IMG/VR virus record: IMGVR_UViG_3300024232_000003
Coordinates: 1 to 51,456 of that record
Source of the DNA: a virus
Taxonomy: Duplodnaviria > Caudoviricetes
Length of the DNA: 51,456 nt
Direction: 5' to 3' (one strand)
Below are positions 15,360 to 31,497 of this stretch, piece by piece. The notes under the pieces are model-generated. The model did no database searches. It worked only from the letters and a program-made list of their open reading frames with translations, and was not told the DNA's origin. Position numbers and translations under genes: made by a program. Positions within the stretch are counted from its first letter, which is position 1. Each line of letters begins with the position of its first letter.

Positions 15360-15374
15360 TTCTGCGACGGTCTT
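15360..15374 (-). promoter_or_regulatory. Start-associated motif AAGACCGTCGCAGAA, copy 1
   Basis: Exact copies at 27339-27353 and 31483-31497; 12 nt upstream of GTG 15347. Confidence 0.85.
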
Positions 15375-15398
15375 TGCCTGCTGAACGGAACTCCTCAC

Positions 15399-15407
15399 AG
15401 TCTACCA
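15399..15407 (-). promoter_or_regulatory. Putative extended -10 promoter
   Basis: TGGTAGACT (TGnTAnnnT) directly after a terminator. Confidence 0.45.
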
Positions 15408-15413
15408 CTATTC

Positions 15414-15447
15414 AACGACAAAGCCCCGGAGGAACAACCTCCGGGGC
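15414..15447 (-). terminator. Rho-independent terminator after the lysis/accessory block
   Basis: 10-bp stem GCCCCGGAGG/CCTCCGGGGC followed by TTTGTCGTT on the minus strand. Confidence 0.75.
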
Positions 15448-15475
15448 CCCAGGAGTCTAACACGAACAGAGGAGA

Positions 15476-15757
15476 CTACTTCGCCTTGCCCTTGGCCTTG
15501 GCCAGTTGGGCCGGGGTCGGAGGAGGCGTCGGGGTATTGGCTGCCAAGGCTGCGGCCAGGGCGTCACTCTTCGCCTTCAAGGTCACGCCCAGGTCGGTGA
15601 CAGGCTGAAGCTCTGCGGCTGTGGCGCCGCCTTGGATAGCCGCGTCCACGGCCGTCTTGATGAGGCCCGGAACCGAGCCGATGAATACAGATGCGGCATC
15701 CATCACAGTGTCGGCTGCGGTCATTTCGTCGATAACGGGTTGCAGGTTTGCTGCCAT
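15476..15757 (-). CDS. Ala-rich helical hypothetical protein
   Basis: GGAGAG RBS; clean ORF. Confidence 0.75.
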   Translation of the reverse strand: MAANLQPVIDEMTAADTVMDAASVFIGSVPGLIKTAVDAAIQGGATAAELQPVTDLGVTLKAKSDALAAALAANTPTPPPTPAQLAKAKGKAK

Positions 15758-15789
15758 GAGAACTCTCCTTCATGAAGTGGTGAGACAGG

Positions 15790-15960
15790 CTATGTGCCTG
15801 TTGTTTTACTCGCGTCCAGGGCCGCTTGCAAGGCGTCGGATTTCTCCTTGAGCTTTGCAGCGGCTGCTTCGAGCTTGGCGGGGTCGTCTCGATGCATCAA
15901 CCAAAGAAGGATGAAATGCAACGTCTCCCGGTCCAAGCCGATCGTGATATTGAAGTGCAT
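15790..15960 (-). CDS. Small protein, 56 aa (not in ORF track)
   Basis: MHFNITIGLDRETLHFILLW...LKEKSDALQAALDA; AGGGGG RBS; similar to C-terminus of 15476..15757. Confidence 0.65.
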   Translation of the reverse strand: MHFNITIGLDRETLHFILLWLMHRDDPAKLEAAAAKLKEKSDALQAALDASKTTGT

Positions 15961-15970
15961 TGCAACCCCC

Positions 15971-16336
15971 TTACGTCTGGACTTCAGACAGCATGGCTGC
16001 CACGTCGGGCTCCGTAATGGTTTTGCCGACCTGAAGGAAGGCGTCCTCGATGGCGGCCTTGGGATCCTGGTCGGAGCATTGCTGGTCGATCACTTCCCGG
16101 AGCTGGGCCCTGTGGCCTCTTAGCTGTCGGTTGAACATACGGGTCACCCGCTGAGGCCGATTGGCCAGCGGCAGGCAGGTGAGCAGCATCGGCAACAGCG
16201 TCTTGAACAAAGACATGATCAAGTCGAGGAACGGGTGAGGGCTCGGGGCCGGCGGAGGAACCGGGTCGTCGCCCATCCCCGTGTCACCCCAAACGATGGC
16301 GGCGATCTTGGCGGACTGTTCTTCGATTGCGGACAT
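15971..16336 (-). CDS. Hypothetical protein
   Basis: GGGGA RBS; fills the operon. Confidence 0.7.
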   Translation of the reverse strand: MSAIEEQSAKIAAIVWGDTGMGDDPVPPPAPSPHPFLDLIMSLFKTLLPMLLTCLPLANRPQRVTRMFNRQLRGHRAQLREVIDQQCSDQDPKAAIEDAFLQVGKTITEPDVAAMLSEVQT

Positions 16337-16345
16337 GGTTTCCCC

Positions 16346-16567
16346 TTACCTGGTTAAAAACATCGCGAGTTCAAAAAGAGCCGAGCCCCAGAAGCACACG
16401 TTCGCGGTGATACATCGCTTCTTGGGGCCAGTGAAGCAGAAGGTTAATAGGGCTCCCTCGATCATATGGGAGAACGCCTCGAATGTTCCCGGCCAGCTCA
16501 GGCCGTGCCCTGGCACTGTGAAGCGGCCGACAATCATAAAGGCCGTTGCTGCCAGCATCCAAATCAT
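16346..16567 (-). CDS. Small multi-pass membrane protein
   Basis: Three hydrophobic segments in 73 aa; ATGA coupling. Confidence 0.6.
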   Translation of the reverse strand: MIWMLAATAFMIVGRFTVPGHGLSWPGTFEAFSHMIEGALLTFCFTGPKKRCITANVCFWGSALFELAMFLTR

Positions 16568-16755
16568 GATCTGCCCGCCAGCTGTTCTTCCCAGGTGTCA
16601 ATGATCTCTGGAGTAATGACAGTCCCAGCTTTGATTGTGTAGATCATGTGGCCGGCCAGATCTTCTACCTTGCGAAGGCGGGCGACTTCTCCCTCTATAC
16701 CCTTGAGCAGCAGCTTGAACTCAGGGCTGTCTTCGGGCTTGGTTTCAGGCGTCAT
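16564..16755 (-). CDS. Hypothetical protein
   Basis: ATGA overlap with upstream gene (start 16755). Confidence 0.6.
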   Translation of the reverse strand: MTPETKPEDSPEFKLLLKGIEGEVARLRKVEDLAGHMIYTIKAGTVITPEIIDTWEEQLAGRS

Positions 16756-17321
16756 TGGCCGCACCCGCCCTTTCCGCACCCGCCGCCTTTGTGTCCTCGG
16801 AAGATGCGGCCAAGCACTCTACGGATGGGGCCACTGCGAGCGACTGCACTCACGCTGGAGCCGTCGCCGACGTTGGAACCGTAAAGCGTCATGGGCGGAT
16901 CGGCACAGGCCACAGGCGGAGGAGCGTACTGCATTCTGGCCTTCATCGTGGCCACTTGCTCCGGAGTCATCTTCATCCCGCAACAGGGGCACACATCGCT
17001 CGATGAACTCGGCGGCAGGGTGGCCACAGGCTGCCACATCGCCTCCGGCACAAAACGAGTTCGAGTCACAAAACGAGTAGCCGGGACTACCGGGCAGACT
17101 CCGCCTGGGCAGTTGGATTGAACCCGGAGTTGAGGCAGGAAGTCGCTTTCCTCCGAGCCGCCCGAATGCTTGGGACAACCGAGGCAGGTGCAGTCGGCTC
17201 CGCACGTGCAAGGCTTGCCTTGGCTGCATCCGCAATCATCTTTCAGGGTCGATTGAGGCAGGGCCTCGGCATAAGCCGGGATGCTGATAACAAGGGCGGC
17301 GAGCAGGGCTAAATACTTCAT
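16752..17321 (-). CDS. Secreted Cys-rich protein with metallothionein-like N-terminal cluster
   Basis: Signal peptide MKYLALLAALVISIPAYA; CGCSQGKPCTCGADCTCLGC; CPGGVCP; start 17321 with GGAG RBS. Confidence 0.7.
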   Translation of the reverse strand: MKYLALLAALVISIPAYAEALPQSTLKDDCGCSQGKPCTCGADCTCLGCPKHSGGSEESDFLPQLRVQSNCPGGVCPVVPATRFVTRTRFVPEAMWQPVATLPPSSSSDVCPCCGMKMTPEQVATMKARMQYAPPPVACADPPMTLYGSNVGDGSSVSAVARSGPIRRVLGRIFRGHKGGGCGKGGCGQ

Positions 17322-17366
17322 GATCCACTCCTTTGTAGAGGCACACGGCCTCATTAACTAACGCGG

Positions 17367-17690
17367 TCAGGTTCCAGTAGGACAGTTGGGCACAGAGATC
17401 ATTGTACGCCGTGAGCCAGGTAGCTGAGTCCACCAGGGCCCCGCTCCACACTTCGGGCAGGTATGAGCCTGCCTGTTTCCGAAGCTGCTTTCTCCATGCG
17501 TCCACACGTATCCACAGGCACCGCAACGATGCGAATGCTGGGGCTCACGGGGCCGGCTGGGAACGAACTGGATGATGGGCTGAACGATTACCGGCTTGGG
17601 CTGAAGGGACGACAACGGTGGCAGGGTGCTCTGCGGGAGATCCGCATAGGCCACACCCGCCACCAACAAGAGGACAACTATTCGACACAT
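17367..17690 (-). CDS. Secreted protein with His/Cys zinc-ribbon motif
   Basis: Signal peptide ending AYA; HSHRCGACGYVWTH...AHTCPKCG. Confidence 0.7.
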   Translation of the reverse strand: MCRIVVLLLVAGVAYADLPQSTLPPLSSLQPKPVIVQPIIQFVPSRPREPQHSHRCGACGYVWTHGESSFGNRQAHTCPKCGAGPWWTQLPGSRRTMISVPNCPTGT

Positions 17691-17700
17691 GGGAGCCTCC

Positions 17701-18489
17701 TTAGGCTGCCGAGGGAGTAACGACTCTCGGAACTATCAGTCCGTCTGGAATAGCCTTATTGGCCACCAATAGGCCCGTGCCATTCTCGCTCCAAGAATCT
17801 CCCCAGGAGTTCCAGATCCTGATGGTGAACGGATTGAGTTTCACAAGGTCCATGGCGCAAACACTATGAGACCACCAGTTGTAATCGACAACGCAAGGGA
17901 TGTTCAGCAGAAGGCAGGTCGCGAGTTGGGCTTTGTTCCTGGGCTCGCCGTCCATCCATTCCGTGATCTTGTGCGTGGCTGCCTCCGCCCTCATGGCTGG
18001 AGTATCGTTGCTCCGCGACATGCTCTGCTGAGGCCACGTCTTGGAAGTCGGGCAGCCATTCGCGGCCTGCCATTCGACTCCTTCGGCTCCCCAACCACCC
18101 TCATCCCGATAGCCCTTGATGATGCAGGCTCCGGCATAGGCCGACAGATCAGCGTAGGGCTCATTGTTGACCGCACGGATGAGCAGATGGGCCGACACTC
18201 CCGAATGCTCCCAGCAGTAGCCCTTGCCGTTCTGGTCTCGGCTCGGGATCGGAGCTCCGTTGTTGCCCTTGTTGCGGATATCGGAGAGTTGCATCTTGGA
18301 AGCGATTTGAGCGGCCAGCCGATCAGGCCACTCCGACTCGGGGATCAAGGGCAGGTCGAACGGCTTGGCACACATCAGGTAGCCAATCGGGTATTGAGCA
18401 TAGTCACGCGGGATCAACCCTTTGGCGTGACCCCAGGGCGAGGTCATATGCTCGTGAGCGTTGCCGTCGTGAATAACGATCTCGGCCAT
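17701..18489 (-). CDS. Papain-like (C1 family) cysteine peptidase
   Basis: DQNGKGYCW (oxyanion Gln, catalytic Cys); WWSHSV (His); IWNSWG..W..NG (Asn); start at MAEIV 18489. Confidence 0.85.
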   Translation of the reverse strand: MAEIVIHDGNAHEHMTSPWGHAKGLIPRDYAQYPIGYLMCAKPFDLPLIPESEWPDRLAAQIASKMQLSDIRNKGNNGAPIPSRDQNGKGYCWEHSGVSAHLLIRAVNNEPYADLSAYAGACIIKGYRDEGGWGAEGVEWQAANGCPTSKTWPQQSMSRSNDTPAMRAEAATHKITEWMDGEPRNKAQLATCLLLNIPCVVDYNWWSHSVCAMDLVKLNPFTIRIWNSWGDSWSENGTGLLVANKAIPDGLIVPRVVTPSAA

Positions 18490-18491
18490 GA

Positions 18492-19334
18492 TTAGCCTCC
18501 GAATTTCTTGAGAAGAGTGAGCATGTCGGCCTCGTTCGCCGGCAGGGGCCCCTCGAAGCCCGTCTTGCCGTTGGAGATTATCACCCACGGAACCGCTGTC
18601 CGTGGCCTCGCCATAGCGTCCTGCCAGAGCTTCGACTCATTGGCCGTCGTCACGTCCTTGTCCCAGATCCGCCATTCCTTGGTTTTGCCGTCTGCGCCCA
18701 CAGCGGCCTTGCTGGTCATGTAGTCACGCACCGCAGGGCCGTAGAGGATCGGAAGCTGCTCTTTGGGAAGCTTCGACAGCTCGGCCGTCTCGTACACGAT
18801 CAGCACCCGGAAGCCGTCTACCGGAATCGGAGGCAACGGACCGGGTGGAGGAGGCGGGGGCGGCTTGGGGCCCGGCGGGTCGGGCGGAGGAGGTGGCGGA
18901 GGCGGCTCGCCCGTCGTGATGGCCTGGCGAATGAGCGTGGCCACGTCTGTCGACCGAAAGATCAGCAATTCGCACGAGCCGGGATTGGCCGCCGTGACGA
19001 TGTAGACGTTGGGCTGCTTGTAATTCCTCAGTTCCGGCTTGCCGTCCTTCGAGTCGCTGAAGACTCCCCACATCGTTATGGGGCCTGGCGCCGCAACGAC
19101 GTTCACGAAGCCCAGAGGTGACGAGGTGACGCCCACGGGGCCGGTTGAAGGAATGACGTAGAGAACGCCAGGCTTGAGAAGGAACGCTGTGCCTGGTGTT
19201 GGTACAGGAACGGGCGGGGCAGGAGGATTGGGCAGAGTGACGACGGGAAGCTTGGGAGGAGGTGGAACAACCGTTTGTCCCCAAGCCGAGCCGACTAAGG
19301 CGCTGGCTAGGAACAATGAAAATAGATACCTCAT
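18492..19334 (-). CDS. Secreted Pro-rich protein with C-terminal globular (thioredoxin-like?) domain
   Basis: Signal peptide; poly-Pro linker; RVLIVYE...VPWVIISNG...GPLP domain. Confidence 0.7.
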   Translation of the reverse strand: MRYLFSLFLASALVGSAWGQTVVPPPPKLPVVTLPNPPAPPVPVPTPGTAFLLKPGVLYVIPSTGPVGVTSSPLGFVNVVAAPGPITMWGVFSDSKDGKPELRNYKQPNVYIVTAANPGSCELLIFRSTDVATLIRQAITTGEPPPPPPPPDPPGPKPPPPPPPGPLPPIPVDGFRVLIVYETAELSKLPKEQLPILYGPAVRDYMTSKAAVGADGKTKEWRIWDKDVTTANESKLWQDAMARPRTAVPWVIISNGKTGFEGPLPANEADMLTLLKKFGG

Positions 19335-19335
19335 T

Positions 19336-19405
19336 TCGACCTTTCAGTTAGAGATCCGGGCGAGCCAGCCGGGAAAGGTCGAGTAAACCAACCGACCCGC
19401 CCGGA
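19336..19405 (-). promoter_or_regulatory. Putative RBS-sequestering RNA pseudoknot/switch
   Basis: Crossing stems 19336-45/19373-82 and 19355-62/19398-405. Confidence 0.55.
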
Positions 19406-19411
19406 CCAGGT

Positions 19412-19804
19412 TTAACTTGCCTTCCCTGAATCGACGACGGCTTGCTTTACTTCGTGCTCGTGGAAAAGCCGTTCCGCCAGATCCGCCGCCTTGACGTCTT
19501 CTTGATCTTTGCTGATCACTGCTATTCGGCGCAAGGCTACGGCGCTGATTTTGAGCTGGGCCGACATGCTGGAGTTGACCAGAGTATGCACGGCCTTCCC
19601 CGTGTTGGAAATCTCCTTGAGCTGCTTGTTGGTGGCGTCAGTGTTATCGGCCAAGGTGTCCTTGACTTCGTTGACGTGCTCGGCGGCCTCCTTTCCCACC
19701 TTGACGATGGCGTTCCTGTTTTGACGCTGCATGTAGCCAAGCCCGAGAGCCACGGCCCCAGCTATCAGAGCCTGCCACACTACGTCTGAGATTGCAAAGA
19801 TCAT
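19412..19804 (-). CDS. Membrane-anchored coiled-coil protein (lysis-associated?)
   Basis: N-terminal TM (VVWQALIAGAVALGLGY) then helical domain. Confidence 0.65.
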   Translation of the reverse strand: MIFAISDVVWQALIAGAVALGLGYMQRQNRNAIVKVGKEAAEHVNEVKDTLADNTDATNKQLKEISNTGKAVHTLVNSSMSAQLKISAVALRRIAVISKDQEDVKAADLAERLFHEHEVKQAVVDSGKAS

Positions 19805-20235
19805 TGAGGCTCCTTGCCGTCAGTCTCCCGATCTGTCTTAATCAACTTTTGCAAGGAAGCAATGTCTTGCTTTACGGATTTAAAGGGGTGACGTGCTATG
19901 GCTGAAATGAGGGCCGCACGAACCGTTTCGATGTTTCCGTTCTTGAGAATGAACTCGTCGGCACCGAGCCGCATTGCCTCCGAGGCTTCGCCGGCCCCGC
20001 TCCACACGACTATAGGAACGTCAGGGAACTGCTTGACTAGGGCCTCCAATGTGCTCATTCCTTTGGAGTCGGGCAGGTTTAGATCGAGAAGGATCACGTC
20101 GGGGATAATGGCTTGCATCATGCCCAGGGCGTCTTGAAGTGTGGCGGCGTGCGTGAATTCAAAGGAGCCTGACAAGATCGAGTCGGCCATCTTAAAATCG
20201 TTTGGGTTATCCTCAATCATTAGCACCGTGGCCAT
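19801..20235 (-). CDS. Single-domain response regulator (CheY-like receiver)
   Basis: VLMIEDN; DVILLDLNLPDSKG (phospho-Asp); PIVVWSG; GADEFILK. Confidence 0.9.
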   Translation of the reverse strand: MATVLMIEDNPNDFKMADSILSGSFEFTHAATLQDALGMMQAIIPDVILLDLNLPDSKGMSTLEALVKQFPDVPIVVWSGAGEASEAMRLGADEFILKNGNIETVRAALISAIARHPFKSVKQDIASLQKLIKTDRETDGKEPQ

Positions 20236-20236
20236 G

Positions 20237-20677: not shown

Positions 20678-20702
20678 CACGGGTTCCTCAGTGTTCGGGT
20701 CT

Positions 20703-20882
20703 CTATCGAAGCGGCGAAACTCCTCCAAAGACCACCCAGCCAAGTATGGCCACACAAAGCCAGGGAATCAGCGTGCTGGTCCCGAACACGACAGGGTTGG
20801 CATTTGGCTGGTTGTAGACGTAGTAGCCGCCTCCAAACAGCCAGAACATCATGAGCACGACGAATATGACGCAGAGAATCAC
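20703..20882 (-). CDS. Two-TM small membrane protein, holin candidate (59 aa, not in ORF track)
   Basis: MILCVIFVVLMMFWLFGGG...LIPWLCVAILGWVVFGG; GTGA overlap with upstream stop. Confidence 0.6.
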   Translation of the reverse strand: MILCVIFVVLMMFWLFGGGYYVYNQPNANPVVFGTSTLIPWLCVAILGWVVFGGVSPLR

Positions 20883-21127
20883 CTTGGTAGCCTCCCGTTT
20901 AGTTGGCGGGCCATCGCATTGGCCTGCTGCTGCTGGGCCTCCATCGCCTGGACCATCGCCATGTTCCGCTGGAACGTGAGGTTAACCTTGGCCATTTCCA
21001 GCATGGCCAGCGCGAAGTCCAGGTTGGCCACGTTCTTCACGCCAACCTGGATGCTTTGCGAGCCTGCGTCGAAGGCCAGTCTCACTTCTGGGCAGCCCGC
21101 TACTTCGATCTGTTGTTCTTCCGACAT
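20879..21127 (-). CDS. Hypothetical protein
   Basis: AGGAGG RBS. Confidence 0.7.
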   Translation of the reverse strand: MSEEQQIEVAGCPEVRLAFDAGSQSIQVGVKNVANLDFALAMLEMAKVNLTFQRNMAMVQAMEAQQQQANAMARQLNGRLPR

Positions 21128-21175
21128 TCTGGCCTCCTTTTGAATGAACTGAAACGGGGGTTTCAGTTGAGCGGA

Positions 21176-21826: not shown

Positions 21827-21875
21827 TTTGAACTCCTTTGGCCGCGGGCGCGCCCTTGGCCGTTAACGATGCACG

Positions 21876-22406
21876 CTAAATCGTACAAACCAAAGCGTTG
21901 ACGCTTGTCGAGGAACTGTTGAGGCCGGTCACGATCGAAAACAGTGAAGCGCCGTCCAGATTCTGCCAGAAGCTGGCGACCGAGTTTCCCGTAGGACTGT
22001 GGATTCCATAGTCGAGGCCGACCGTGCCGCCCTTGATGATCACAATGGTTCCCGCGAACCTCTGAGTGGATCCCACGTCTGCATTGTCGAGGCCTGGCAC
22101 CGTGCAAAGCGTCACAGTGTACGACGACAGAAAGTACGGGATCCAGATAGGCACGTGAGGAGCGGTGAGGGCAGGAAGGATTCTCCAGCCATAGACGTTC
22201 ATGATAAGCGTAGTGGCCGATCCCACCCCAAAAGGCAACACCAACATCCTCTTGGGAGCTATGCCGCCAAACTCCGAGTTGAAGTCGATAACCCCGTCAC
22301 CCGAAGGGCGGCTATAGGTCGGCACTGGCTCGACGATAGAGGCCGCGGTCGAGTTCGCTGTAGGGAAGGCGACCTTGAAAGGGCCTGTGCGTTCGTCAAT
22401 CTGCAT
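21876..22406 (-). CDS. Putative virion structural protein
   Basis: Beta-rich 176 aa in late operon; GAGG RBS. Confidence 0.55.
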   Translation of the reverse strand: MQIDERTGPFKVAFPTANSTAASIVEPVPTYSRPSGDGVIDFNSEFGGIAPKRMLVLPFGVGSATTLIMNVYGWRILPALTAPHVPIWIPYFLSSYTVTLCTVPGLDNADVGSTQRFAGTIVIIKGGTVGLDYGIHSPTGNSVASFWQNLDGASLFSIVTGLNSSSTSVNALVCTI

Positions 22407-22425
22407 CGCCTAACCTCTTATAAGA

Positions 22426-22484
22426 CACCCTCCCGTACTCGCTTCTGCGAAGACCGTCGCATAGAACACGAAGCCGGGAGGGTG
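22426..22484 (-). ncRNA. Structured intergenic RNA carrying the antisense copy of the start-associated motif
   Basis: 10-bp closing stem CACCCTCCCG/CGGGAGGGTG; inner GCTTC/GAAGC and TGCGA/TCGCA stems; contains GTGTTCT-A-TGCGACGGTCTT. Confidence 0.6.
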
Positions 22485-22495: not shown

Positions 22496-23290
22496 TCACT
22501 CGAATGGCTGGCCGTTGTAGGTCAACTGGCCACGATTCCAGTAGCCGTGACGGTTCCAGCGGCCCCCTCGCTGGGCATTGCCGTTGTAACCGAGTTTCTG
22601 GGGCCGGTTCTTGTTGTCGGCACTCACAGCGCCCAGGAGCATCATCTGGAATTTCATGGTGTGCGGCCCGTCCATCGTGTCGTCGAATCGCTGCTCCGCG
22701 ATCGACAGGCAGCTTTCGATATACAACTCGCGGTACTGGGGGCCACCGTAACAGTAAGGGGTAGCACCCGTGATTCGATCCGGATTGATCGAGTAGACGC
22801 AGCGGATGTCATAGGCCGCGTCTGACGTCGGGAAGATCACCAGGCTCTTGCGCTGGCCCACGGGGGCGTTGATGTCTCGGAGCGGGGCCTCGCAGGCGTA
22901 CAAGGGTGGCCCGGTTCGGCTTGGTTCGAGCTGCTGCATCTGCTGGATCTTGCCGAGGTTGATCCACTCGATCAGCCACGGGGCCGAGACGCTCGTGCTC
23001 GATACGACCGTTAGCGGGCCGACGAAACTACCGAAATCATCCGGCAAGCGAATCGAACTGGCCCCTGAGTCGAGGTGAATCGTCGACTGTGGCTTGAGGA
23101 AGGTCCAGTCGGGAGCGATCTTCTCGCCGTTTACTGGGGGCGGGAAATAAACTTGCGCGATGCCCGAAGTGGTCACGTCGTTTATGACATACAACTGGTT
23201 GTCATTCCATCCAGCAGGGTCGCGCCCGTAACCCTGCTGGACGGCAATGATGGAACGAAGCTCGTCAAAAGTCACTGCAAAGGAGGACAT
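22496..23290 (-). CDS. Head-tail adaptor / tail tubular protein A-like
   Basis: W.FL...LPDDF...GPP..Y...IFPTSDAAY pattern typical of podoviral adaptors. Confidence 0.7.
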   Translation of the reverse strand: MSSFAVTFDELRSIIAVQQGYGRDPAGWNDNQLYVINDVTTSGIAQVYFPPPVNGEKIAPDWTFLKPQSTIHLDSGASSIRLPDDFGSFVGPLTVVSSTSVSAPWLIEWINLGKIQQMQQLEPSRTGPPLYACEAPLRDINAPVGQRKSLVIFPTSDAAYDIRCVYSINPDRITGATPYCYGGPQYRELYIESCLSIAEQRFDDTMDGPHTMKFQMMLLGAVSADNKNRPQKLGYNGNAQRGGRWNRHGYWNRGQLTYNGQPFE

Positions 23291-23480: not shown

Positions 23481-23482
23481 GG

Positions 23483-25363: not shown

Positions 25364-25374
25364 GGTCTAACTCC

Positions 25375-25611
25375 TTAGCTTGCCAATTTGACAGGGATAT
25401 CCAGGTACTCCCCGATGATGGTCGCAATGCTGTTCGCGTCGGCCTTGTACGATTCAGACGAAAGAATCTTCTGCGCCCATCCATAGTCGGCCACGACTGA
25501 GAACAGTCTCGTTTTGCTTTCAGGCTCGGCTGTGTCGTGGACCATCAGAGCCTTCGGCAAGGAGTCGTTCAAAACGAAATGAGAAAACGTCTTCGTATGC
25601 GTACAAGTCAT
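25375..25611 (-). CDS. Hypothetical protein
   Basis: AGGAG RBS. Confidence 0.6.
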   Translation of the reverse strand: MTCTHTKTFSHFVLNDSLPKALMVHDTAEPESKTRLFSVVADYGWAQKILSSESYKADANSIATIIGEYLDIPVKLAS

Positions 25612-25621
25612 GTCGGACTCC

Positions 25622-25696
25622 TACAATGAAACGAGCACGCGGCGGCTGTTACCCGCCCGTGCCCCGGCACTACTCAGATTGGAGACAAAGCAGTGC
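25622..25696 (+). promoter_or_regulatory. Endonuclease leader element, divergent copy
   Basis: TACAATGA; hairpin 25635-25662; second stem GCACT/AGTGC enclosing GGAG and covering the GTG start. Confidence 0.55.
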
Positions 25697-26280
25697 AACA
25701 CAATTCTACTGATCTTTTCGGCAACCTTCCTTTGCAACAGTGCATGTTGTGCAAAGAGCGCAAACCAATCGACGACTACCCGATGGGCAAAGTCCGTCGC
25801 GTTCGCAACTGCTCGGCCTGCCGATCCAGAACAGAAAAGGCCTGCACGAAATGCAAACGAGTGCAGCCTATGGAAGATTTTCCCTGGAACACTCCAGCCA
25901 AAAATAATCCGTGCTATCCAAAGAAGTATCGAGGATCCCATTGCAACACTTGTGGTGCAGAACACACTAGGGCGTGGGGCCTGAGGGTTGGCAAGGCCCG
26001 CGTCAGACAAATGAACAGGCAAAAGCTCTATGGGATTACCTTGGATCAATACCGGGAAATGGAGTTGGCTCAGGACGGTCGGTGCCTGATCTGCGGAACC
26101 AACGAATTCCCTATCGACAAGCGAAGCAAAATACCGAGACAGCTTGAGGTCGATCACTGCCACAAGACTGGCAAGATTCGCGGACTGCTTTGCCATCGTT
26201 GCAACAATGGCCTTGGCTGTTTCAGTGATGACCCCAAACTCCTTCAAGCTGCAATCTCCTATCTACGTAAGTCGTTGTAA
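25693..26280 (+). CDS. Endonuclease VII-family homing endonuclease (antisense insertion)
   Basis: YGITLDQY..QDGRCLICG...LEVDHCHKTGKIRGLLCHRCNNGLG; N-terminal CxxC repeats. Confidence 0.9.
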   Translation: MQHNSTDLFGNLPLQQCMLCKERKPIDDYPMGKVRRVRNCSACRSRTEKACTKCKRVQPMEDFPWNTPAKNNPCYPKKYRGSHCNTCGAEHTRAWGLRVGKARVRQMNRQKLYGITLDQYREMELAQDGRCLICGTNEFPIDKRSKIPRQLEVDHCHKTGKIRGLLCHRCNNGLGCFSDDPKLLQAAISYLRKSL

Positions 26281-27327
26281 TCAGCTGGGATAGGTCGTCC
26301 CGTTCGATGCGCAAAAGTGTGGACGCCTATTTCGGGTATAAGGGGTCCACATGCAGTCCGTAAACCCTAGCGAAACATTGTGACTGCTTGGCGAGTAAGG
26401 AATGATCGTCTCGCGCATCCACTCTCCGCGGGCGATGGCAATCCAGAACCATCCGAGGTCGAGGCCGTAGAAAGGATTCGTGGTGTCGGCATCGAGGAAT
26501 GGCACGTACTTGACGCCGATCCCGCGAAACATAGGGTCGCCGCCATCCATGCTGGCGACGTCACGACCAAGATTGTCATTCTGCGACTCCATGCTTTCTT
26601 GCAGGGCCTGCCGCACTGCGTAGTTGGAGTAGTAGCGTGGCTTATACCCGTTGTTCGGGCTCGGGATGCCCTTGACCTGGGGCTTGAAATTGCACTTCTC
26701 TGCGGCCTCGCGGATCTGACGGATGAAATCATCGCGTGAAATCGCTGTGTAAGGCGCACACCAGTTCTGCCACCTGGGGTAGGTCGTCGAGCTGATGTTC
26801 GCAATGGCCGTGTAGCCAGTGAGCATGCCCGAGGTGAAGCCCTTGGTGGCGCCCTTGGTGACCCAGTAGGGCAGGCCGAAGGGAACCTTGAGGTCGGTGG
26901 CCGAGGGCGGCATCCAGAAGTTGCGCTCAAAGAGGTTCGCCAGGCTGATCTGCGCCATGATGCGCTGCTGCTTGACGAAATCGACGATGAGGGCCGGTTC
27001 TCGATTCATCGACACGAGTTGATGAATGAGCATCCAGCTCGTTTGCGTGTTGCGGAAGTTGATGCGGCCCTGGATCATGCCGTCCGTTTCGGTCACGTTG
27101 TCCGGCTCGGCCAGGCCCACGTTGCGCGCGGCCGTGCTCTGGTTGACCAGGGCGTTGAACTGCATGCCCACGCCGGAGCCGATCGTCACCCGATCTTCCA
27201 CCAGAAGCTCATCCATGACGACGAGCTGCTGGAGGTCGCTCGAAATGTCGGTCCAGTCCGGCTTGCCGAGGTCGTAGAGTGTGTCCGCTACGAAGTCGGC
27301 CACATTTTCCATCTGGATTACAGGCAC
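26281..27327 (-). CDS. Major capsid protein
   Basis: 348 aa after scaffold; strong GC3 bias; HK97-fold-like pattern (PFGLPYW, WQNW, FRGIGVKYVP). Confidence 0.75.
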   Translation of the reverse strand: MPVIQMENVADFVADTLYDLGKPDWTDISSDLQQLVVMDELLVEDRVTIGSGVGMQFNALVNQSTAARNVGLAEPDNVTETDGMIQGRINFRNTQTSWMLIHQLVSMNREPALIVDFVKQQRIMAQISLANLFERNFWMPPSATDLKVPFGLPYWVTKGATKGFTSGMLTGYTAIANISSTTYPRWQNWCAPYTAISRDDFIRQIREAAEKCNFKPQVKGIPSPNNGYKPRYYSNYAVRQALQESMESQNDNLGRDVASMDGGDPMFRGIGVKYVPFLDADTTNPFYGLDLGWFWIAIARGEWMRETIIPYSPSSHNVSLGFTDCMWTPYTRNRRPHFCASNGTTYPS

Positions 27328-27338
27328 TTCAAAACGCT

Positions 27339-27353
27339 TTCTGCGACGGTCTT
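27339..27353 (-). promoter_or_regulatory. Start-associated motif AAGACCGTCGCAGAA, copy 2
   Basis: 11 nt upstream of MCP GTG; no clear Shine-Dalgarno in between. Confidence 0.85.
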
Positions 27354-28317
27354 AGGATCGTTTGAAAGTATTACGCAGGTCTTGATCTTCTTTGGCCGTG
27401 GACGGGTTGACTGCCACGCCGTTCTCGCGAGCCCGGCGTTCAGCGTTCTTGATGGCGCGCTCGCGACCGAAGGGCTCCTGGTCGCTCTCGCGTTGCGTTG
27501 GGACCGCGGTTCCGCCGGCTTCCCACTCTTCGCGGGTGTAGCGGCCACGGCGTTGCGGACGTTCTACTGAAACGGGGGTTTCAGTTGACTTCTTCTCGAT
27601 CTTGAAAAGCTCGTCGGCCTTAGCCTTGAGCTTCGAGAGAAGTTGTTTTCCGGAGGTCACGCGGGCGTCGAGGCCGGTCTCCTGAAGCACCACCATGCGC
27701 CTGCGGAAGGTGGCCGGGTCGGAGGCCTTGAGGTCGTCGCCGGATCCGGCACCGAAGTAAGCCGCGTACTCCGGCCCCAGAGCCTCAAAGGCGTCGTCGA
27801 TCATCGACTTGGCCTGAGCGATGGAGCGTTCCTGATCGCGCGCTTTGGTTTGGGCCAACTCTTCACGGAGTTCCTTGAGGGCCTTGGCGTTCTCGGCGTC
27901 ACGAGTCTTGAGCTTGTTGAAGGCCCCGACGATCTTCTCGTCGTACTCTTCCGGCTTGAGGCCGAGATCGAGTTCCGGCTCGGGTTCAGGGGCCTTGGCT
28001 GGTGTCTGGGTGGACTGGAGGCGTTCACGCCACTCGTTGTCGCGGCGTTGGGCCTGCGTGAGGGCGATTCCGAGCGAGTCTGTCGTCATCTTGGCGCAGT
28101 CGGCCTCGGTGAAGCCGTAGTTCCTGGCCATTTCGAGGAGATAAGAAGGGTGAGCCGGCGGAGTGGATGAGTTCTTCGCCGGCTCGGGGGGTGTGACTTC
28201 CTTGAAAGTGCCGTCAGGATTGCGTTCCCGGGGCCTGGGAATGCCGTCCGGCTGGGACATATCGAGGTCGGTGTTGCCCAAATTCCTATTGGGAACTTCC
28301 GGTGTAGGCTCTGCCAA
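27352..28317 (-). CDS. Capsid scaffolding protein
   Basis: Acidic/coiled-coil; RERNPDGTF motif; between portal and MCP. Confidence 0.7.
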   Translation of the reverse strand: MAEPTPEVPNRNLGNTDLDMSQPDGIPRPRERNPDGTFKEVTPPEPAKNSSTPPAHPSYLLEMARNYGFTEADCAKMTTDSLGIALTQAQRRDNEWRERLQSTQTPAKAPEPEPELDLGLKPEEYDEKIVGAFNKLKTRDAENAKALKELREELAQTKARDQERSIAQAKSMIDDAFEALGPEYAAYFGAGSGDDLKASDPATFRRRMVVLQETGLDARVTSGKQLLSKLKAKADELFKIEKKSTETPVSVERPQRRGRYTREEWEAGGTAVPTQRESDQEPFGRERAIKNAERRARENGVAVNPSTAKEDQDLRNTFKRS

Positions 28318-28361
28318 TGCACATCACGTCTTCCCGCGTGGTCTTCGCTGAAGTGATGTTA

Positions 28362-28390
28362 AGCTTACGTCGATATGGAGATAGTGTCAA
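28362..28390 (-). promoter_or_regulatory. sigma70-like promoter for scaffold/capsid genes
   Basis: TTGACA (28390-28385), 17-nt spacer, TAAGCT (28367-28362). Confidence 0.65.
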
Positions 28391-28410
28391 AGAATCAACG
28401 ATTTGGGGCC

Positions 28411-28477
28411 AACTGCTACCCCGGTAGCAGTTCAACTGCGTACCGGTACGCAGTTCGACTGGACAGGGTGTCCAGTC
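28411..28477. repeat. Three tandem RACTG...CAGTY palindromes
   Basis: 28411-28432, 28434-28455 and 28457-28477, each separated by a single C. Confidence 0.85.
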
Positions 28478-28479
28478 CG

Positions 28480-28863
28480 TCAGATTCGAGGCCGTTTCTT
28501 GGGCGGTTCGGGCGGCAAAGCAGCCCCTCTTCCGCTCCAATTCTCGTCTCGATTCACGTATCCAGTGGCCTGGCAATATTGCCTCTGATGCTCCCGGCTC
28601 TTCCAGATGATTGAGCCGTCTGGAGCGAAGTCGGTCGGCACTCCGATGGCTGTGGCCGCAGCGCGAGCCTCTTCGACCTGGCTTGGGTGGACTCCGAGCG
28701 AGTCGGCTGCGTAGGGATAACTCGAAGCCTTGGCTCCCATTGGAGGCCCGGAGCCGGCCACGGGCAGAGGATGGCGTTCCCGGTAGGTGACCTCGTCTAC
28801 TTCGAGGTTGTCTAGGAAGTAGTGAGCCTCTTTGCCAAGCTCGATTCGGTCAGGCGTCTTCAC
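28480..28863 (-). CDS. Hypothetical protein between portal and scaffold
   Basis: LGVHPSQV...GVPTDF..DG; GTGA coupling. Confidence 0.7.
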   Translation of the reverse strand: MKTPDRIELGKEAHYFLDNLEVDEVTYRERHPLPVAGSGPPMGAKASSYPYAADSLGVHPSQVEEARAAATAIGVPTDFAPDGSIIWKSREHQRQYCQATGYVNRDENWSGRGAALPPEPPKKRPRI

Positions 28864-29117
28864 GTCGCGTCTCCGTATGCCTCGGCAATCTTATTCTTCA
28901 CCAGCTTATCGAACGCCTCGCCTTCGAGCCGCCTGATGTCTGACAGTTCCACTGGGAACTGGATGGCCAGGCCCCTCGCTATGATGCAGACGAGGGCCGG
29001 GCCTCGGCTCAAGTGTTGCATCGTCACGTTCACGGAATCAACGTCTCCGACGACGCGCTCCAGGCATTCGGCCAGTTTCTTCTCGCAGCCTGAACTACTG
29101 CCGGTTGTGACTTTCAT
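28860..29117 (-). CDS. Hypothetical protein
   Basis: AGGAGG RBS. Confidence 0.65.
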   Translation of the reverse strand: MKVTTGSSSGCEKKLAECLERVVGDVDSVNVTMQHLSRGPALVCIIARGLAIQFPVELSDIRRLEGEAFDKLVKNKIAEAYGDAT

Positions 29118-29130
29118 TGTGTCCTCCTTC

Positions 29131-29210
29131 TACAATGACGAAAGGCCGGCGTGTTGAAGCACGGCGGCCTCTCTCAACACAACCCGCTTTCTGAGGAGCG
29201 AGTCATGCCT
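29131..29210 (+). promoter_or_regulatory. Endonuclease leader element, copy 2
   Basis: TACAATGA; hairpin 29143-29170; 15-nt and 16-nt blocks identical to 12144-12158 and 12162-12177. Confidence 0.75.
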
Positions 29211-29669
29211 AGAACTTATGTTACTCACGGCCAATGCGTTGGTGGAGCCTCTCGCGAATACAAGTCTTGGTACAGCATGATCCAACGCTGCACCAATCCC
29301 AAGAATCGTTCGTATCCAGACTACGGAGCCAGAGGGATTACGGTCTGTTTTGAATGGAGAAAGTTTGAGGCGTTCTTTGCCGACATGGGCAAAAAGCCGT
29401 CTCTGCTGCACAGCCTTGATCGCAAAGACAACAGCAAGGGCTACTGCAAAGAGAATTGCCGCTGGGCCACAAAGACTGTGCAAAACAGGAACGCCAGAAG
29501 GAATCGACTTCTGACGTTCAGGGGAACAACGATGTGCGTCTCGGCTTGGGAAGAACACCTTGGCTTTACTCCCGAAACCATTCGCCAGAGGCTTGACAAG
29601 TGCCACTGGTCGATTGAAAAGGCATTGACCGCTCCGCAGAGGAATCTCACATCCGTCGTACAGCGTTAG
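29205..29669 (+). CDS. HNH-type homing endonuclease (antisense insertion)
   Basis: YKSWYSMIQRCTNP..YPDYGARGITVC..W..F..F..DMG...SLDRKDNSKGY.KENCRWAT..QNRN; start at 29205 from RBS. Confidence 0.88.
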   Translation: MPRTYVTHGQCVGGASREYKSWYSMIQRCTNPKNRSYPDYGARGITVCFEWRKFEAFFADMGKKPSLLHSLDRKDNSKGYCKENCRWATKTVQNRNARRNRLLTFRGTTMCVSAWEEHLGFTPETIRQRLDKCHWSIEKALTAPQRNLTSVVQR

Positions 29670-31470
29670 GCTGCCCATTCTTGGTGGGTTCGTTTGTCAT
29701 GGCGTTAACGGCTGCCATTTGTTGCCCGTTTGCGGTCGGCCCCGATTCGCTCCTTCGCACATAATTTCGAGTAGTATTTGCTGGTTTCCCCGGAGGTTCA
29801 GGTTGTCCCTGCCCGCCTTCGGTGTCAGCGGTTGCTGTCGGGGGTGGAACCATTTTCACTAATTCCAAAAGCTGAGGCATATCTCCAAGCTTTGCTTTCA
29901 TCGCAAGGTAGGCTTGGAAATCTAGTCCAACTCCTTGTTGTTGCAGGATTGGCGCTAGAGGAATCAAGATTTGCGACATCACTTGGTCGAGCGAAGCCAT
30001 CCTTTGTTCAGGCGACTTGTATTGCAAAGAATATGGGTCCACTCTGATCGCCATGTCCTCGAAGTCGTGGTCCCTGTTCATCATGCCCGGCTGCGGAGGC
30101 TGGCCTGGCATTCTCGCGGGGCCGACCTGCAATGGCGCTGTCACGTCGGGCATCCCCGGCAAGGTGTAGGTCAATTTCATGACCTTCGTTGGATCGTGAT
30201 GGAAGTACCAGCACAGGGCGTTCACTACGGATGAGGCGTGGGCGATGGCGCGCTGCTGCATGTCCGCGATCGTGGCCGAGCTGTTCTGCTGGAGCATTTC
30301 GTCCTGGGCGGCCGTCTTGCTTTGCGGGCTGAGGCCGCCGAGGGAGTCGAGGTTGCCGGCCTGCCAACTGAATAGCTCCTTGAAAGCGCCCATGAGTTGG
30401 AAGTTGTTCTGGTTGGGGCCGCCCCAGCTAATCGAATGGATCTGCTCGGGCCGGTCGGAGAGCATGGCCTCGCCGTCTTTGGTCGTCAGCAGTGTCTCGC
30501 CTTCCTTCGCCGCGGAGCCCGCCACGGCGATGACTTCCTTCTGTCGGTCGGCCTGGTCGATCAACTTGCGGATCATGGTGTTGACCGACTCGGCCAGGTC
30601 GATGAGGTTCTGAATGGGGGCCACGGGCATCGGGTTCCCTGGCAGGTAGCCCATGCTCAGGATGTGATAAGGGCCGGTGCGAGGACCGAGCCAGGGCTTG
30701 ATCTCCAAGGGCTCGTTCGAGTAGCCGCCGTTGCTGCCGATGTCGTCGTCTTGGAGCGTGATGATCAATTTGTGCCGGGGCAGGTAGAACTCCCACAGGT
30801 CGATCATCGGCTCAGCTTCTTCGTAGCCGGCCAGCGTAGTTCGGCCCACCACGCTAATGCGTTCGTCGCCTTCTTTGTTGTAGAGGGCGTCGTCGGTGGC
30901 CTGGAGGTCTCGCTTCTTGCCGTAGAGCTTCTGCGCTACCTTGAGAGGGATTCGGTAGCGATGGCCCATGAAAGCACACTGGTCGAAACGACGAGCATGA
31001 ACATCGAAAACGAAGTCGTCAAGGTCGATGGTTTCGGCGAAGGGCTCACCTGCACGTATTGCCCATCCGAGGTTCGCAGCCATACCTGGGTCAGCGAGCG
31101 ATACCTTAACAACTCCAAGACAGTACAAGGAATCATCGACGGCCCTTTGCAAGGTTTCTACCAGGTTAATGTTGACGATCTGTTTGTTGACCCAGGTCTC
31201 CATCGCGTTCACGACGGGCTTGATCTGCCGGTTGTCCGTGGTCAGCAGGGCCCGGGGGTTGTTGGCCACCAGCTTTCGGCCCACGATGGTCCGGTACATG
31301 CTGATGAGGTTGAGGGGCTGGGCCACCTCCGAGCCTTCGAGCGAGTTATGGATGCCGGCGGTCACGCGCACGGCGGCCACGCGCTCCTCGCGGGCAAAGC
31401 GCAGAACGAGCCGGGCCCGTTGGGCGCTGCAACAGAGTTGATCGAGATCGAGGTCTGCGGGGGCCTTCAT
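29647..31470 (-). CDS. Portal protein
   Basis: 607 aa directly after TerL; podoviral portal-like helical pattern with disordered Gln/Pro tail. Confidence 0.8.
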   Translation of the reverse strand: MKAPADLDLDQLCCSAQRARLVLRFAREERVAAVRVTAGIHNSLEGSEVAQPLNLISMYRTIVGRKLVANNPRALLTTDNRQIKPVVNAMETWVNKQIVNINLVETLQRAVDDSLYCLGVVKVSLADPGMAANLGWAIRAGEPFAETIDLDDFVFDVHARRFDQCAFMGHRYRIPLKVAQKLYGKKRDLQATDDALYNKEGDERISVVGRTTLAGYEEAEPMIDLWEFYLPRHKLIITLQDDDIGSNGGYSNEPLEIKPWLGPRTGPYHILSMGYLPGNPMPVAPIQNLIDLAESVNTMIRKLIDQADRQKEVIAVAGSAAKEGETLLTTKDGEAMLSDRPEQIHSISWGGPNQNNFQLMGAFKELFSWQAGNLDSLGGLSPQSKTAAQDEMLQQNSSATIADMQQRAIAHASSVVNALCWYFHHDPTKVMKLTYTLPGMPDVTAPLQVGPARMPGQPPQPGMMNRDHDFEDMAIRVDPYSLQYKSPEQRMASLDQVMSQILIPLAPILQQQGVGLDFQAYLAMKAKLGDMPQLLELVKMVPPPTATADTEGGQGQPEPPGKPANTTRNYVRRSESGPTANGQQMAAVNAMTNEPTKNGQPNAVRRM

Positions 31471-31482
31471 GGTGCCTTAGTG

Positions 31483-31497
31483 TTCTGCGACGGTCTT
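31483..31497 (-). promoter_or_regulatory. Start-associated motif AAGACCGTCGCAGAA, copy 3
   Basis: 12 nt upstream of portal ATG; overlaps the TerL stop. Confidence 0.85.

What the first reader, a model, noticed from the sequence alone, without database searches (positions are those of the whole stretch)
15360..31497. Start-associated 15-mer before virion genes plus a cognate antisense hairpin: candidate sRNA system controlling late translation
Seen: the exact 15-mer AAGACCGTCGCAGAA (minus strand, i.e. mRNA sense) occurs at 31483-31497, 27339-27353 and 15360-15374. It lies 12, 11 and 12 nt upstream of the portal, major capsid and 14976..15347 start codons. The capsid gene has no clear Shine-Dalgarno. 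A degenerate copy, AAGACCACGCGGGAA (28331-28345), sits 13 nt before the SD-less scaffold TTG. The only inverted copy I found is inside an intergenic hairpin (22426-22484) of the same late transcript. Two copies (15360, 28331) lie downstream of sigma70-like promoters, which argues the motif is a 5'-UTR element rather than a promoter. Inference: a phage RNA pairs with the initiation regions of head genes to time or dose their translation. Known analogies are P1 C4 antisense RNA and mycobacteriophage cluster K start-associated sequences, but here the targets are structural genes.
Basis: partly seen in the sequence, partly recalled or inferred. Interest (0 to 1): 0.9.

Follow-up and report, generated by a model that had tools for sequence, protein, structure and literature searches.

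The report
Head-gene leader motif with matching hairpin
A soil phage carries the same 15-letter tag just ahead of three head-building genes and its mirror image at the tip of a strong hairpin further down the same operon; four related phages show the same arrangement with different letters, which points to an RNA that pairs with these gene leaders.

Summary
The exact 15-mer occurs three times on the coding strand, 12, 11 and 12 nt before the starts of the portal gene, the HK97-fold major capsid gene and a 123-aa head-module gene. No 15-mer reached three copies in 0 of 200 simulated genomes. A gapped pattern finds only two more sites. One is a degenerate copy in a hairpin before the scaffold gene. 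The other is an inverted copy with a 2-nt insertion at the apex of a 59-nt hairpin (z -5.6). The motif genes have weak or no Shine-Dalgarno (ranks 34, 43, 47 and 55 of 56).

Relatives with only 43-49% portal identity carry different leader motifs upstream of portal, scaffold and capsid genes. Each has the reverse complement at the apex of an extended hairpin. In L022, L005 and L029 that hairpin lies just upstream of the ortholog of window gene 21876..22406. This covariation is clear in L022 and L005, weak in L029, and was found by a biased route in L089.

The RNA itself, its processing and any effect on translation are unshown. Three broad unbiased scans lacked power and showed nothing.

The parts
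31483..31497 (-). Leader motif copy 1. It begins inside the TAA stop of the large terminase gene and ends 12 nt before the portal ATG.
   Evidence: the leader is unstructured (z +1.0)
27339..27353 (-). Leader motif copy 2. It begins inside the TAA stop of the scaffold gene and ends 11 nt before the capsid GTG. This gene has no Shine-Dalgarno.
15360..15374 (-). Leader motif copy 3, 12 nt before the GTG of the 123-aa gene 14976..15347. It lies downstream of a terminator-like hairpin.
   Evidence: orthologs of this gene lie between portal and scaffold genes in L005, L029, L010 and L009
28322..28358 (-). Hairpin in the scaffold leader. Its loop carries the degenerate sense copy (28331-28345), 13 nt before the scaffold TTG.
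22426..22484 (-). Extended hairpin with a 10-bp outer stem, bulges and a 6-nt apical loop. Its 5' inner arm and loop are the reverse complement of the motif (12 contiguous nt, then a 2-nt bulge, then 3 nt). The core lies at 22450-22466.
   Evidence: a comparable hairpin lies just upstream of the ortholog of 21876..22406 in L022, L005 and L029
29647..31470 (-). Portal gene (SU10 type), a target
27352..28317 (-). Scaffold-like gene, a target (degenerate site)
26281..27327 (-). Major capsid gene (HK97 fold), a target
14976..15347 (-). 123-aa head-module gene, a target
21876..22406 (-). Gene immediately downstream of the hairpin. Its orthologs in L022, L005 and L029 mark the syntenic position of their hairpins.
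22496..23290 (-). Adaptor-like gene that ends 11 nt before the hairpin
   Evidence: PF24175, E 1.5e-4, below the cut-off

Best explanation
The 15-mer is a leader element of head-morphogenesis mRNAs. It sits at about -26 to -12, just 5' of a weak or absent Shine-Dalgarno. The hairpin at 22426-22484 lies in the same late operon and carries the element's antisense partner at its apex.

Proposed mechanism:
1. The hairpin is left as a stable RNA, either by termination/processing or as the 3' end of the head transcript.
2. Its 6-nt loop nucleates on the first half of the motif, and pairing spreads into the inner stem to give 12 bp.
3. The duplex covers the ribosome standby/entry region of the portal, capsid, 123-aa and (weakly) scaffold leaders.
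4. This jointly doses or times their translation. Repression is the more likely direction.

Shown here: the repeats, their positions, the structure, the weak Shine-Dalgarno sequences, and co-variation of motif and hairpin apex across lineages. Inferred: that the RNA exists as a separate species, that pairing occurs in vivo, and what its effect is.
For: 1. Exact triple. 0 of 200 simulated genomes held any 15-mer three times. All 5 family members lie in intergenic gaps.
2. Hairpin. The single inverted copy sits at the apex of a very stable hairpin (z -5.6). The three exact targets lie in unstructured RNA (z -0.3 to +1.0).
3. Energies. Accessibility-corrected interaction energies are about -11 kcal/mol for the three leaders and -9 for the scaffold site.
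4. Weak Shine-Dalgarno. Motif genes rank 34, 43, 47 and 55 of 56 in SD strength. The capsid start is confirmed by homologs.
5. Covariation.
   - L022: its 10-mer occurs exactly 4 times in the 47.9-kb record, 3 sense and 1 inverted. Sense copies lie 18 nt before the portal start, 15 nt before the scaffold start and 37 nt before the capsid start. The inverted copy sits at the apex of an extended hairpin, followed by a terminator, just upstream of the ortholog of 21876..22406.
   - L005: an 8-9-mer lies 15-17 nt before four starts (portal with 1 mismatch, scaffold, capsid, and one more gene). Its complement is in the apical loop of the syntenic hairpin.
   - L089: a 7-10-nt complement sits in the apical loop of an 11-bp-stem hairpin.
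   - L029: a 9-nt complement to a site 16 nt before the scaffold start.
6. Shuffle test. 8-mers of the hairpin's reverse complement were scored against start-proximal windows. The window hits 3 of 70 windows (4 of 300 shuffles reach this). L022 hits 3 of 20 (0 of 300). L005 hits 2 of 20 (3 of 300).
7. Matched versus mismatched genomes. The longest complement between hairpin and 60-nt leader is >=9 in 10 of 14 matched pairs and in 1 of 56 mismatched pairs.
Against: - No RNA data. No listed run is RNA, so no transcript end, processing site or separate sRNA has been seen.
- Nested co-folding of the whole hairpin with a leader gains only 0 to -2 kcal/mol.
- Raw duplex energies of the anti-motif against other places in the genome reach -19 to -25 kcal/mol. 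Thermodynamics therefore does not single out the targets.
- L029 is not significant in the shuffle test (152 of 300 shuffles reach its value).
- The L089 hairpin was located through inverted 7-mers, so that case is biased. Its start coordinates are off by a few nt.
- Three broader, cruder scans showed no excess. Genome-wide reverse-complement matches did not differ from reversed controls. Intergenic 8-mers hitting >=2 windows: 14 of 63 loci, against 12 and 13 of 63 in the controls. The strongest 70-nt fold downstream of the adaptor was significant in 0 of 29 loci, and this scan also missed the known hairpins.
- In 8 of 11 relatives that hold the ortholog of 21876..22406, no intergenic hairpin precedes it.
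- A DNA-binding protein would also make all sites co-evolve.
Confidence: 0.55

Rival explanations
1. The sites are DNA sites of a sequence-specific phage regulator, either an operator or a roadblock like the stoperators of Cluster A mycobacteriophages. The inverted copy would simply be one more site.
For: The motif is asymmetric and lies in short intergenic gaps, often abutting the upstream stop codon. This is as described for stoperators (PMC9283540, passages read). All sites of one protein would co-evolve, which could also produce the lineage-specific pattern. A NikA-like ribbon-helix-helix domain is found in ORF 34921..35625 (31.6 bits) and a weak HTH in 47617..48489.
Against: The inverted site always sits at the apex of an extended hairpin whose outer stem differs in sequence between lineages but keeps its structure. 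A duplex-DNA site does not need that. The window's inverted copy has a 2-bp insertion, which would split a protein site. Stoperators lose function when inverted, so a conserved inverted site is not expected. There are 3-5 sites here, against more than 20. No integrase or repressor family turned up in about 80 ORFs scanned.
Confidence: 0.17
2. The 15-mer is a phage-specific late promoter, read by an unrecognised phage sigma-like factor or polymerase, that drives the portal, capsid and tail-side units.
For: Three exact copies stand before key late genes, and related phages have different motifs at the same places. This is the pattern of promoters that co-evolve with their polymerase. phiEco32 and SU10, which share the portal type, have three late promoters with a common 11-nt motif read by a phage sigma factor (PMC4281155, passages read). 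The 15360 copy follows a terminator-like hairpin, so some promoter is needed there.
Against: No RNA polymerase or sigma family was found in about 80 ORFs. Only 11-12 nt separate the motif from the start codon, so a start site 6-8 nt downstream would remove the ribosome site. There is no conserved -35 region and no conserved initial transcribed sequence. An inverted copy at a hairpin apex in four lineages has no role in this model.
Confidence: 0.1
3. The motif is an RNA element read by a protein or by the ribosome itself, as a translational enhancer or operator in the standby region. The hairpin would be an unrelated terminator or processing site, or at most a decoy.
For: The position is fixed just 5' of weak Shine-Dalgarno sequences. 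In L005 the spacing is fixed at 15-17 nt before four genes. Cluster K start-associated sequences are a precedent of unknown mechanism (PMC3203893, passages read; PMC12699233, passages read).
Against: This does not explain why the hairpin apex tracks the motif as its complement in several lineages. No RNA-binding family was found (same Pfam calls). Pairing with 16S rRNA could not be tested, because the host is unknown and one search gave no control loci.
Confidence: 0.1
4. The copies are remnants of a small palindromic repeat element that spread or was homogenised without any regulatory role.
For: Copies 22450, 28331 and partly 15360 keep a left arm that makes them palindromic. Several relatives carry multi-copy intergenic palindromes of 19-27 nt.
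Against: Three copies are identical over 15 nt while their flanks are unrelated, and two of them lack the left arm. The gene associations and the complement relation recur with other sequences in relatives of only 43-49% portal identity. Repeats of 10-15 nt are too short for gene conversion (general knowledge).
Confidence: 0.05

Closest known systems
P1/P7 c4 antisense RNA of the immI operon, and the similar P4 CI RNA
   Same: A small structured RNA encoded in the same operon as its targets. It acts in trans through loop sequences complementary to short repeated sites ahead of the regulated genes. [quoted passage not shown] Details of the target repeats and of P4 CI are recalled, not read.
   Different: Those systems control immunity or antirepressor genes of temperate elements. 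Here the targets are the portal, scaffold and capsid genes of what looks like a lytic podophage, and the RNA lies downstream of its targets. No Rfam family, c4 included, matches the hairpin.
Start-associated sequences (SAS) of Cluster K mycobacteriophages
   Same: An asymmetric short repeat just upstream of start codons, sometimes overlapping the upstream stop codon. Almost all copies are in one orientation, with a single copy on the other strand that is not tied to a start. The function is unknown (PMC3203893; still unknown in 2025, PMC12699233).
   Different: SAS is a 13-mer that contains the Shine-Dalgarno core. It lies 3-7 nt from the start, in 11-19 copies, in the non-structural half of the genome. 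Here the 15-mer lies 5' of the ribosome site, at 11-13 nt, in 3-4 copies, before head genes. The SAS consensus is not enriched in the window: 4 hits at 2 mismatches against 2.1 expected, none at the sites.
Stoperators of Cluster A mycobacteriophages (L5)
   Same: Asymmetric 13-mers in short intergenic spaces, oriented with transcription (PMC9283540).
   Different: There are more than 20 sites across the genome, bound by the immunity repressor of a temperate phage. No such repressor or integrase was found here, and the hairpin context of the inverted copy has no counterpart.
Late promoters of phiEco32/SU10 read by the phage sigma factor gp36
   Same: Related portal and adaptor type. Three late promoters share a short exact motif (PMC4281155).
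   Different: That motif lies 6-8 nt upstream of mapped transcript starts and needs gp36. No sigma factor was detected here, and the spacing to the start codon leaves no room for a leader.

Membership tests
Cluster K start-associated sequences | 13-mer consensus GGGATAGGAGCCC with at most 2 deviations, in many copies | tested here: not met
   4 hits at 2 mismatches against 2.13 expected; 17 of 100 shuffles reach 4; none lies at the motif sites
Cluster K start-associated sequences | 3-7 nt from the start codon, contains the AGGAG core, lies in non-structural genes | tested here: not met
   11-13 nt from the start, no AGGAG in the motif, head genes
Cluster K start-associated sequences | Asymmetric, one orientation, with a lone copy on the other strand | tested here: met
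   3 exact copies plus 1 degenerate sense copy and 1 inverted copy
Stoperator/immunity repressor system (Cluster A) | More than 20 asymmetric sites across the genome, including early regions | tested here: not met
   5 sites, all between 15360 and 31497
Stoperator/immunity repressor system (Cluster A) | Temperate phage with an immunity repressor and an integrase | tested here: inconclusive
   No such Pfam family in about 80 ORFs scanned, but most ORFs match nothing
phiEco32/SU10 gp36-dependent promoters | Phage-encoded sigma-70-family factor | tested here: not met
   No sigma domain found in the same Pfam scans; divergent factors could escape detection
phiEco32/SU10 gp36-dependent promoters | Motif 6-8 nt upstream of mapped transcript starts | not testable with these tools
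   No RNA run holds the phage
Operon-embedded antisense RNA (P1 c4 type) | Loop or apical sequence complementary to repeated sites ahead of the regulated genes | tested here: met
   12-nt complement to three leaders; matched versus mismatched genomes differ
Operon-embedded antisense RNA (P1 c4 type) | Sequence/structure membership in the Rfam family | tested here: not met
   The whole-window Rfam scan at E<=1 gave only a SymR-like hit and a snoRNA hit, both elsewhere
Operon-embedded antisense RNA (P1 c4 type) | RNA processed out of the operon transcript and acting on translation | not testable with these tools
   Needs RNA mapping and reporters

The most novel reading that the evidence does not exclude
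A family of uncultivated soil podophages with an SU10-type portal uses a fast-evolving 'leader / anti-leader' riboregulator. A hairpin RNA made from the end of the head-gene transcript pairs with a lineage-specific tag in the leaders of the portal, scaffold and capsid mRNAs. It thereby sets the timing or ratio of head-protein synthesis. Motif and hairpin apex co-evolve in the way a promoter does with its polymerase.
Probability: 0.45. Interest if true: 0.85.

Novelty: new variant of a known kind. Interest (0 to 1): 0.72.

Why it matters
In the four searches I ran I found no phage antisense RNA that controls translation of virion structural genes. This was not a dedicated search, so I do not claim it is absent from print. 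The phage riboregulators I know of act on immunity, lysis-lysogeny or host genes.

If the pairing is real, it gives a compact and portable way to co-regulate several late genes. It also offers a concrete hypothesis for the unexplained start-associated repeats of other phages. And it shows that covariation between a hairpin apex and gene leaders can be read from metagenomic phage genomes alone. The system is small enough to test directly with leader-reporter fusions and compensatory mutations.

Tried and rejected
Close relatives.
- Proteins with 60-87% portal identity exist in the protein collection. Their DNA could not be reached. The best loci in viral contigs and metagenome contigs have about 50% identity. 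Genome contigs gave none.
- The 12-nt core of the motif is absent from the 80 relative loci held at that time.
- A scan of viral contigs for the 15-mer gave 84 single hits. tblastx showed none of them to be a relative.

Sequencing runs.
- No RNA holder is listed.
- Contigs of four DNA runs were laid. Three are near-identical strains. The table of differences was cut (381 rows not shown), so conservation of the motif in the more divergent run could not be read.

Known families.
- Rfam has no family for the motif or the hairpin.
- Pfam and PHROGs found no polymerase, sigma factor, integrase, repressor or RNA-binding family.
- The first capsid model was too poor to use (pLDDT 38.6). The second, from a deeper alignment, was used.
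- Profile searches of PDB sequences with the capsid and portal alignments found nothing.

Motif leads that went nowhere.
- A family-wide 'AGCAGG' upstream motif looked promising in L022, L025, L095 and L096. It is not enriched overall and is not used in the window.
- The L022 terminator stem shares 7 nt with the window motif. I rejected this as chance, because that 7-mer is common at 116 per Mb.
- A test of pairing with 16S rRNA failed because no control loci were returned.

Broad covariation scans. All three were uninformative or negative, as described in the Against line.

Supplementary tables of the SAS papers were not seen and might list cases closer to this one.

Full report
WHAT THE WINDOW IS. 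The window is a complete IMG/VR virus record of 51,456 bp. Its first 126 bp repeat at the end. It has 59% G+C, and nearly all genes lie on the - strand. It has no close DNA relative among deposited phages. The gene identifications are:
- Large terminase, 31496..33436: phrog_2, E 2.7e-8.
- Portal, 29647..31470: many homologs carry the SU10 portal family PF23899.
- Adaptor-like gene, 22496..23290: PF24175, E 1.5e-4, below the cut-off.
- Major capsid, 26281..27327: HK97 fold. The model has pLDDT 82.5, and its Foldseek PDB top hits are phage capsids at E 4e-11 with probability 1.0.
- Scaffold-like gene, 27352..28317: homologous to the gene upstream of the capsid gene in relative L022.

THE OBSERVATION. 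The exact 15-mer occurs three times on the coding strand, and once more inverted with two mismatches. Apart from a second 15-mer family that owes two of its three copies to the terminal overlap, it is the only 15-mer present three times. None of 200 first-order Markov genomes had any 15-mer three times.

A gapped form of the motif hits exactly five places:
- the three exact copies;
- the inverted copy at 22450-22466, which is the full motif with a 2-nt insertion;
- the degenerate copy at 28331-28345.

All five lie between genes. In two copies the motif starts inside the TAA stop codon of the upstream gene. The distances to the start codons are 12, 11, 12 and 13 nt.

The capsid start is supported by homologs, whose N-termini align with the GTG-initiated sequence. 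The four motif-bearing genes rank 34, 43, 47 and 55 of 56 in predicted pairing with the anti-Shine-Dalgarno sequence. The capsid gene has essentially none. That script used a recalled 9-nt motif and my own unverified gene starts.

ANATOMY OF THE HAIRPINS. On the mRNA strand, 22484..22426 folds into a 59-nt extended hairpin. It has a 10-bp G+C-rich outer stem, an internal loop, a bulged inner stem and a 6-nt loop. Its energy is -33.9 kcal/mol, z -5.6, and 0 of 200 shuffles fold as well. The 5' inner arm plus the loop is the reverse complement of the motif. The 3' inner arm is a sense copy of the motif's last 8 nt. The loop could therefore nucleate on the motif's first half, and the target could then displace the 3' arm.

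The degenerate copy before the scaffold gene is also a hairpin, and it shows the sense half in its loop. The three exact copies lie in unstructured RNA (z -0.3, +0.5, +1.0).

The energetics give a mixed picture:
- An accessibility-corrected estimate gives about -11 kcal/mol for each exact leader and -9 for the scaffold site.
- Nested co-folding gives only 0 to -2.
- The anti-motif finds duplexes of -19 to -25 elsewhere in this G+C-rich genome.

Energetics therefore allow the pairing but do not prove it.

RELATIVES. About 430 relatives exist in IMG/VR and 48 in the metagenome set. The best have only about 50% portal identity. None carries the window's motif.

I compared the 55 nt upstream of the portal and capsid starts within each of 36 loci. 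They share a word of >=9 nt in 7 of 36 loci, against 4 of 278 mismatched pairs. For >=8 nt the figures are 8 of 36 against 12 of 278. The shared words differ from phage to phage. Some are palindromic hairpins (L114, and also L018, L034, L042 and L026). Others are asymmetric (L022, L089, L046, L053).

COVARIATION. Four relatives show the arrangement, with different strength.
- L022 (portal 43%, capsid 58% identity). Its 10-mer occurs exactly four times in the whole 47.9-kb record, three sense and one inverted. The sense copies lie 18 nt before the portal start, 15 nt before the scaffold start and 37 nt before the capsid start. The inverted copy sits at the apex of an extended hairpin with a 10-bp outer stem and is followed by a strong intrinsic terminator. 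This hairpin lies immediately upstream of the ortholog of window gene 21876..22406, which is the gene that follows the window's own hairpin.
- How the syntenic set was defined. I used that gene as an anchor. 11 of 119 distinct loci hold the ortholog. In three of them (L005, L022, L029) the upstream 150 nt form an intergenic hairpin. In the other eight the upstream sequence looks coding.
- L005. The apical loop of the hairpin is complementary to an 8-9-mer. That word lies 16 nt before the scaffold start and 16 nt before the capsid start, where it abuts the TAA stop. It also lies 17 nt before a third gene and, with one mismatch, 15 nt before the portal start.
- L029. A 9-nt complement lies 16 nt before the scaffold start.
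- L089. I found this hairpin by looking for inverted 7-mers, so it is a biased case. It has an 11-bp outer stem (z -3.8). Its apical loop carries a 7-10-nt complement of the motif shared by its portal and capsid leaders.

TESTS. Two targeted tests favour a link.
- Shuffle test. I scored 8-mers of the hairpin's reverse complement against start-proximal windows. The window hits 3 of 70 windows (4 of 300 shuffles reach this). L022 hits 3 of 20 (0 of 300). L005 hits 2 of 20 (3 of 300). L029 hits 1 of 26 (152 of 300, not significant).
- Matched versus mismatched genomes. I measured the longest complement between each hairpin and each 60-nt leader:
  - Portal: 12, 10, 8, 6 and 10 in matched genomes. 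In 20 mismatched pairs, one reaches 10 and the rest are <=8.
  - Scaffold: 9, 10, 9 and 9 matched. In 16 mismatched pairs the maximum is 8.
  - Capsid: 12, 10, 9, 6 and 7 matched. In 20 mismatched pairs the maximum is 7.
  - The L089 start coordinates in that script are off by a few nt.

Three broader scans gave no signal:
- Genome-wide reverse-complement matches did not differ from reversed controls.
- Intergenic 8-mers hitting two or more start windows were found in 14 of 63 loci, against 12 and 13 of 63 in the controls.
- The strongest 70-nt fold downstream of the adaptor was significant in 0 of 29 loci.

The last scan did not pick the known hairpins even in L005 and L022. The first two have large search spaces and rest on crude gene calls. 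I read all three as underpowered, not as contrary evidence, but they are negative results.

THE REGULON. Orthologs of the 123-aa gene 14976..15347 lie between the portal and scaffold genes in L005, L029, L010 and L009. All three exact copies in the window therefore precede head-module genes.

INTERPRETATION.
- a leader motif repeated before the same head genes;
- a single inverted copy;
- the placement of that copy at the apex of a structurally conserved but sequence-divergent hairpin, which in L022, L005 and L029 lies at the same genomic position as in the window;
- joint change of motif and apex across lineages.

In L022 and L005 the hairpin is followed directly by an intrinsic terminator, which is the usual build of a 3'-end-derived small RNA. 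In the window and in L029 the hairpin itself is followed by a U-rich stretch. The effect on translation, its direction, and the existence of a separate RNA species are inferred.

A DNA-binding regulator remains possible, because its sites would also co-evolve. It does not explain the hairpin context, and an inverted site is not expected for orientation-dependent roadblocks. A phage-specific promoter has a precedent in phiEco32/SU10. It lacks a detected factor, lacks room for a leader, and gives the inverted hairpin copy no role.

COMPARISON WITH KNOWN SYSTEMS. In how it would work, the system is closest to operon-embedded antisense RNAs such as P1 c4 (details recalled). In appearance it is closest to Cluster K start-associated sequences. 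It is not a member of that family by sequence, spacing or gene class. No Rfam family matches it. I rate it a new variant of a known kind. It is of high interest if confirmed, because the targets are virion structural genes and the pattern recurs across a widespread group of uncultivated soil phages.

Noticed in passing
window 29137-29210 (-) and 12087-12178 (-): Two paralogous two-hairpin elements of about 90 nt. They share a 34-nt near-identical first hairpin, while the second, terminator-like hairpin differs in sequence but keeps its structure (z -3.2 and -5.8). Each is antisense to the ribosome site and start of a + strand gene embedded among the late genes (29205..29669, and the HNH endonuclease 12172..12687). 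The first copy matches Rfam SymR (RF01809) over its full length at 41.4 bits, E 1.7e-4, below the gathering score of 61. They could be cis-antisense RNAs that hold homing-endonuclease genes in check, or 5' leaders of those genes.
   Followed up: partly
window 21147-21168, 28411-28432, 28434-28455; near copy at about 27566-27587: A family of 22-nt perfect palindromes of the form AACTG-N12-CAGTT, with different but self-complementary interiors. The pattern gives 6 matches against 0.29 expected. Two stand in tandem upstream of the scaffold leader, one stands before gene 20879..21127, and a near copy lies inside the scaffold ORF.
   Followed up: partly
loci L018, L034, L042, L026, L114: Distant relatives carry 4-8 copies each of lineage-specific intergenic palindromes of 19-27 nt. 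These usually lie between a stop codon and the next ribosome site. In L018 all 7 copies have the same loop orientation.
   Followed up: partly
window 50042..50638, 47090..47902, 12172..12687 (+), 25621..26247: Three ORFs with the HNH_3 endonuclease domain. A fourth ORF has a DNA stretch resembling endonuclease VII genes of other phages. This is an unusually high load of homing-type nucleases for a 51-kb genome.
   Followed up: no
window 2287..7881 (-): A 1864-aa ORF at the end of the structural module with no significant match in Pfam, PHROGs (one hit at E 0.0086) or PDB sequences.
   Followed up: partly
window 26281..27327 and relatives L010, L009/L089, L005, L029: The major capsid gene starts with GTG and has a weak or absent Shine-Dalgarno, both here and in the closest available clade.
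   Followed up: partly
window 31479: A more divergent strain in run X5 lacks one base between the motif and the portal start. The spacing can therefore vary by 1 nt.
   Followed up: no
window 33543..33815 and 44486..45025: Two paralogous small proteins with weak DUF6083 matches (E 7e-6 and 3e-5, both just below the cut-off). One lies directly upstream of the terminase gene.
   Followed up: no
window 1-126 and 51331-51456: The record's two ends are identical over 126 bp, either a terminal repeat or a circular assembly overlap.
   Followed up: yes
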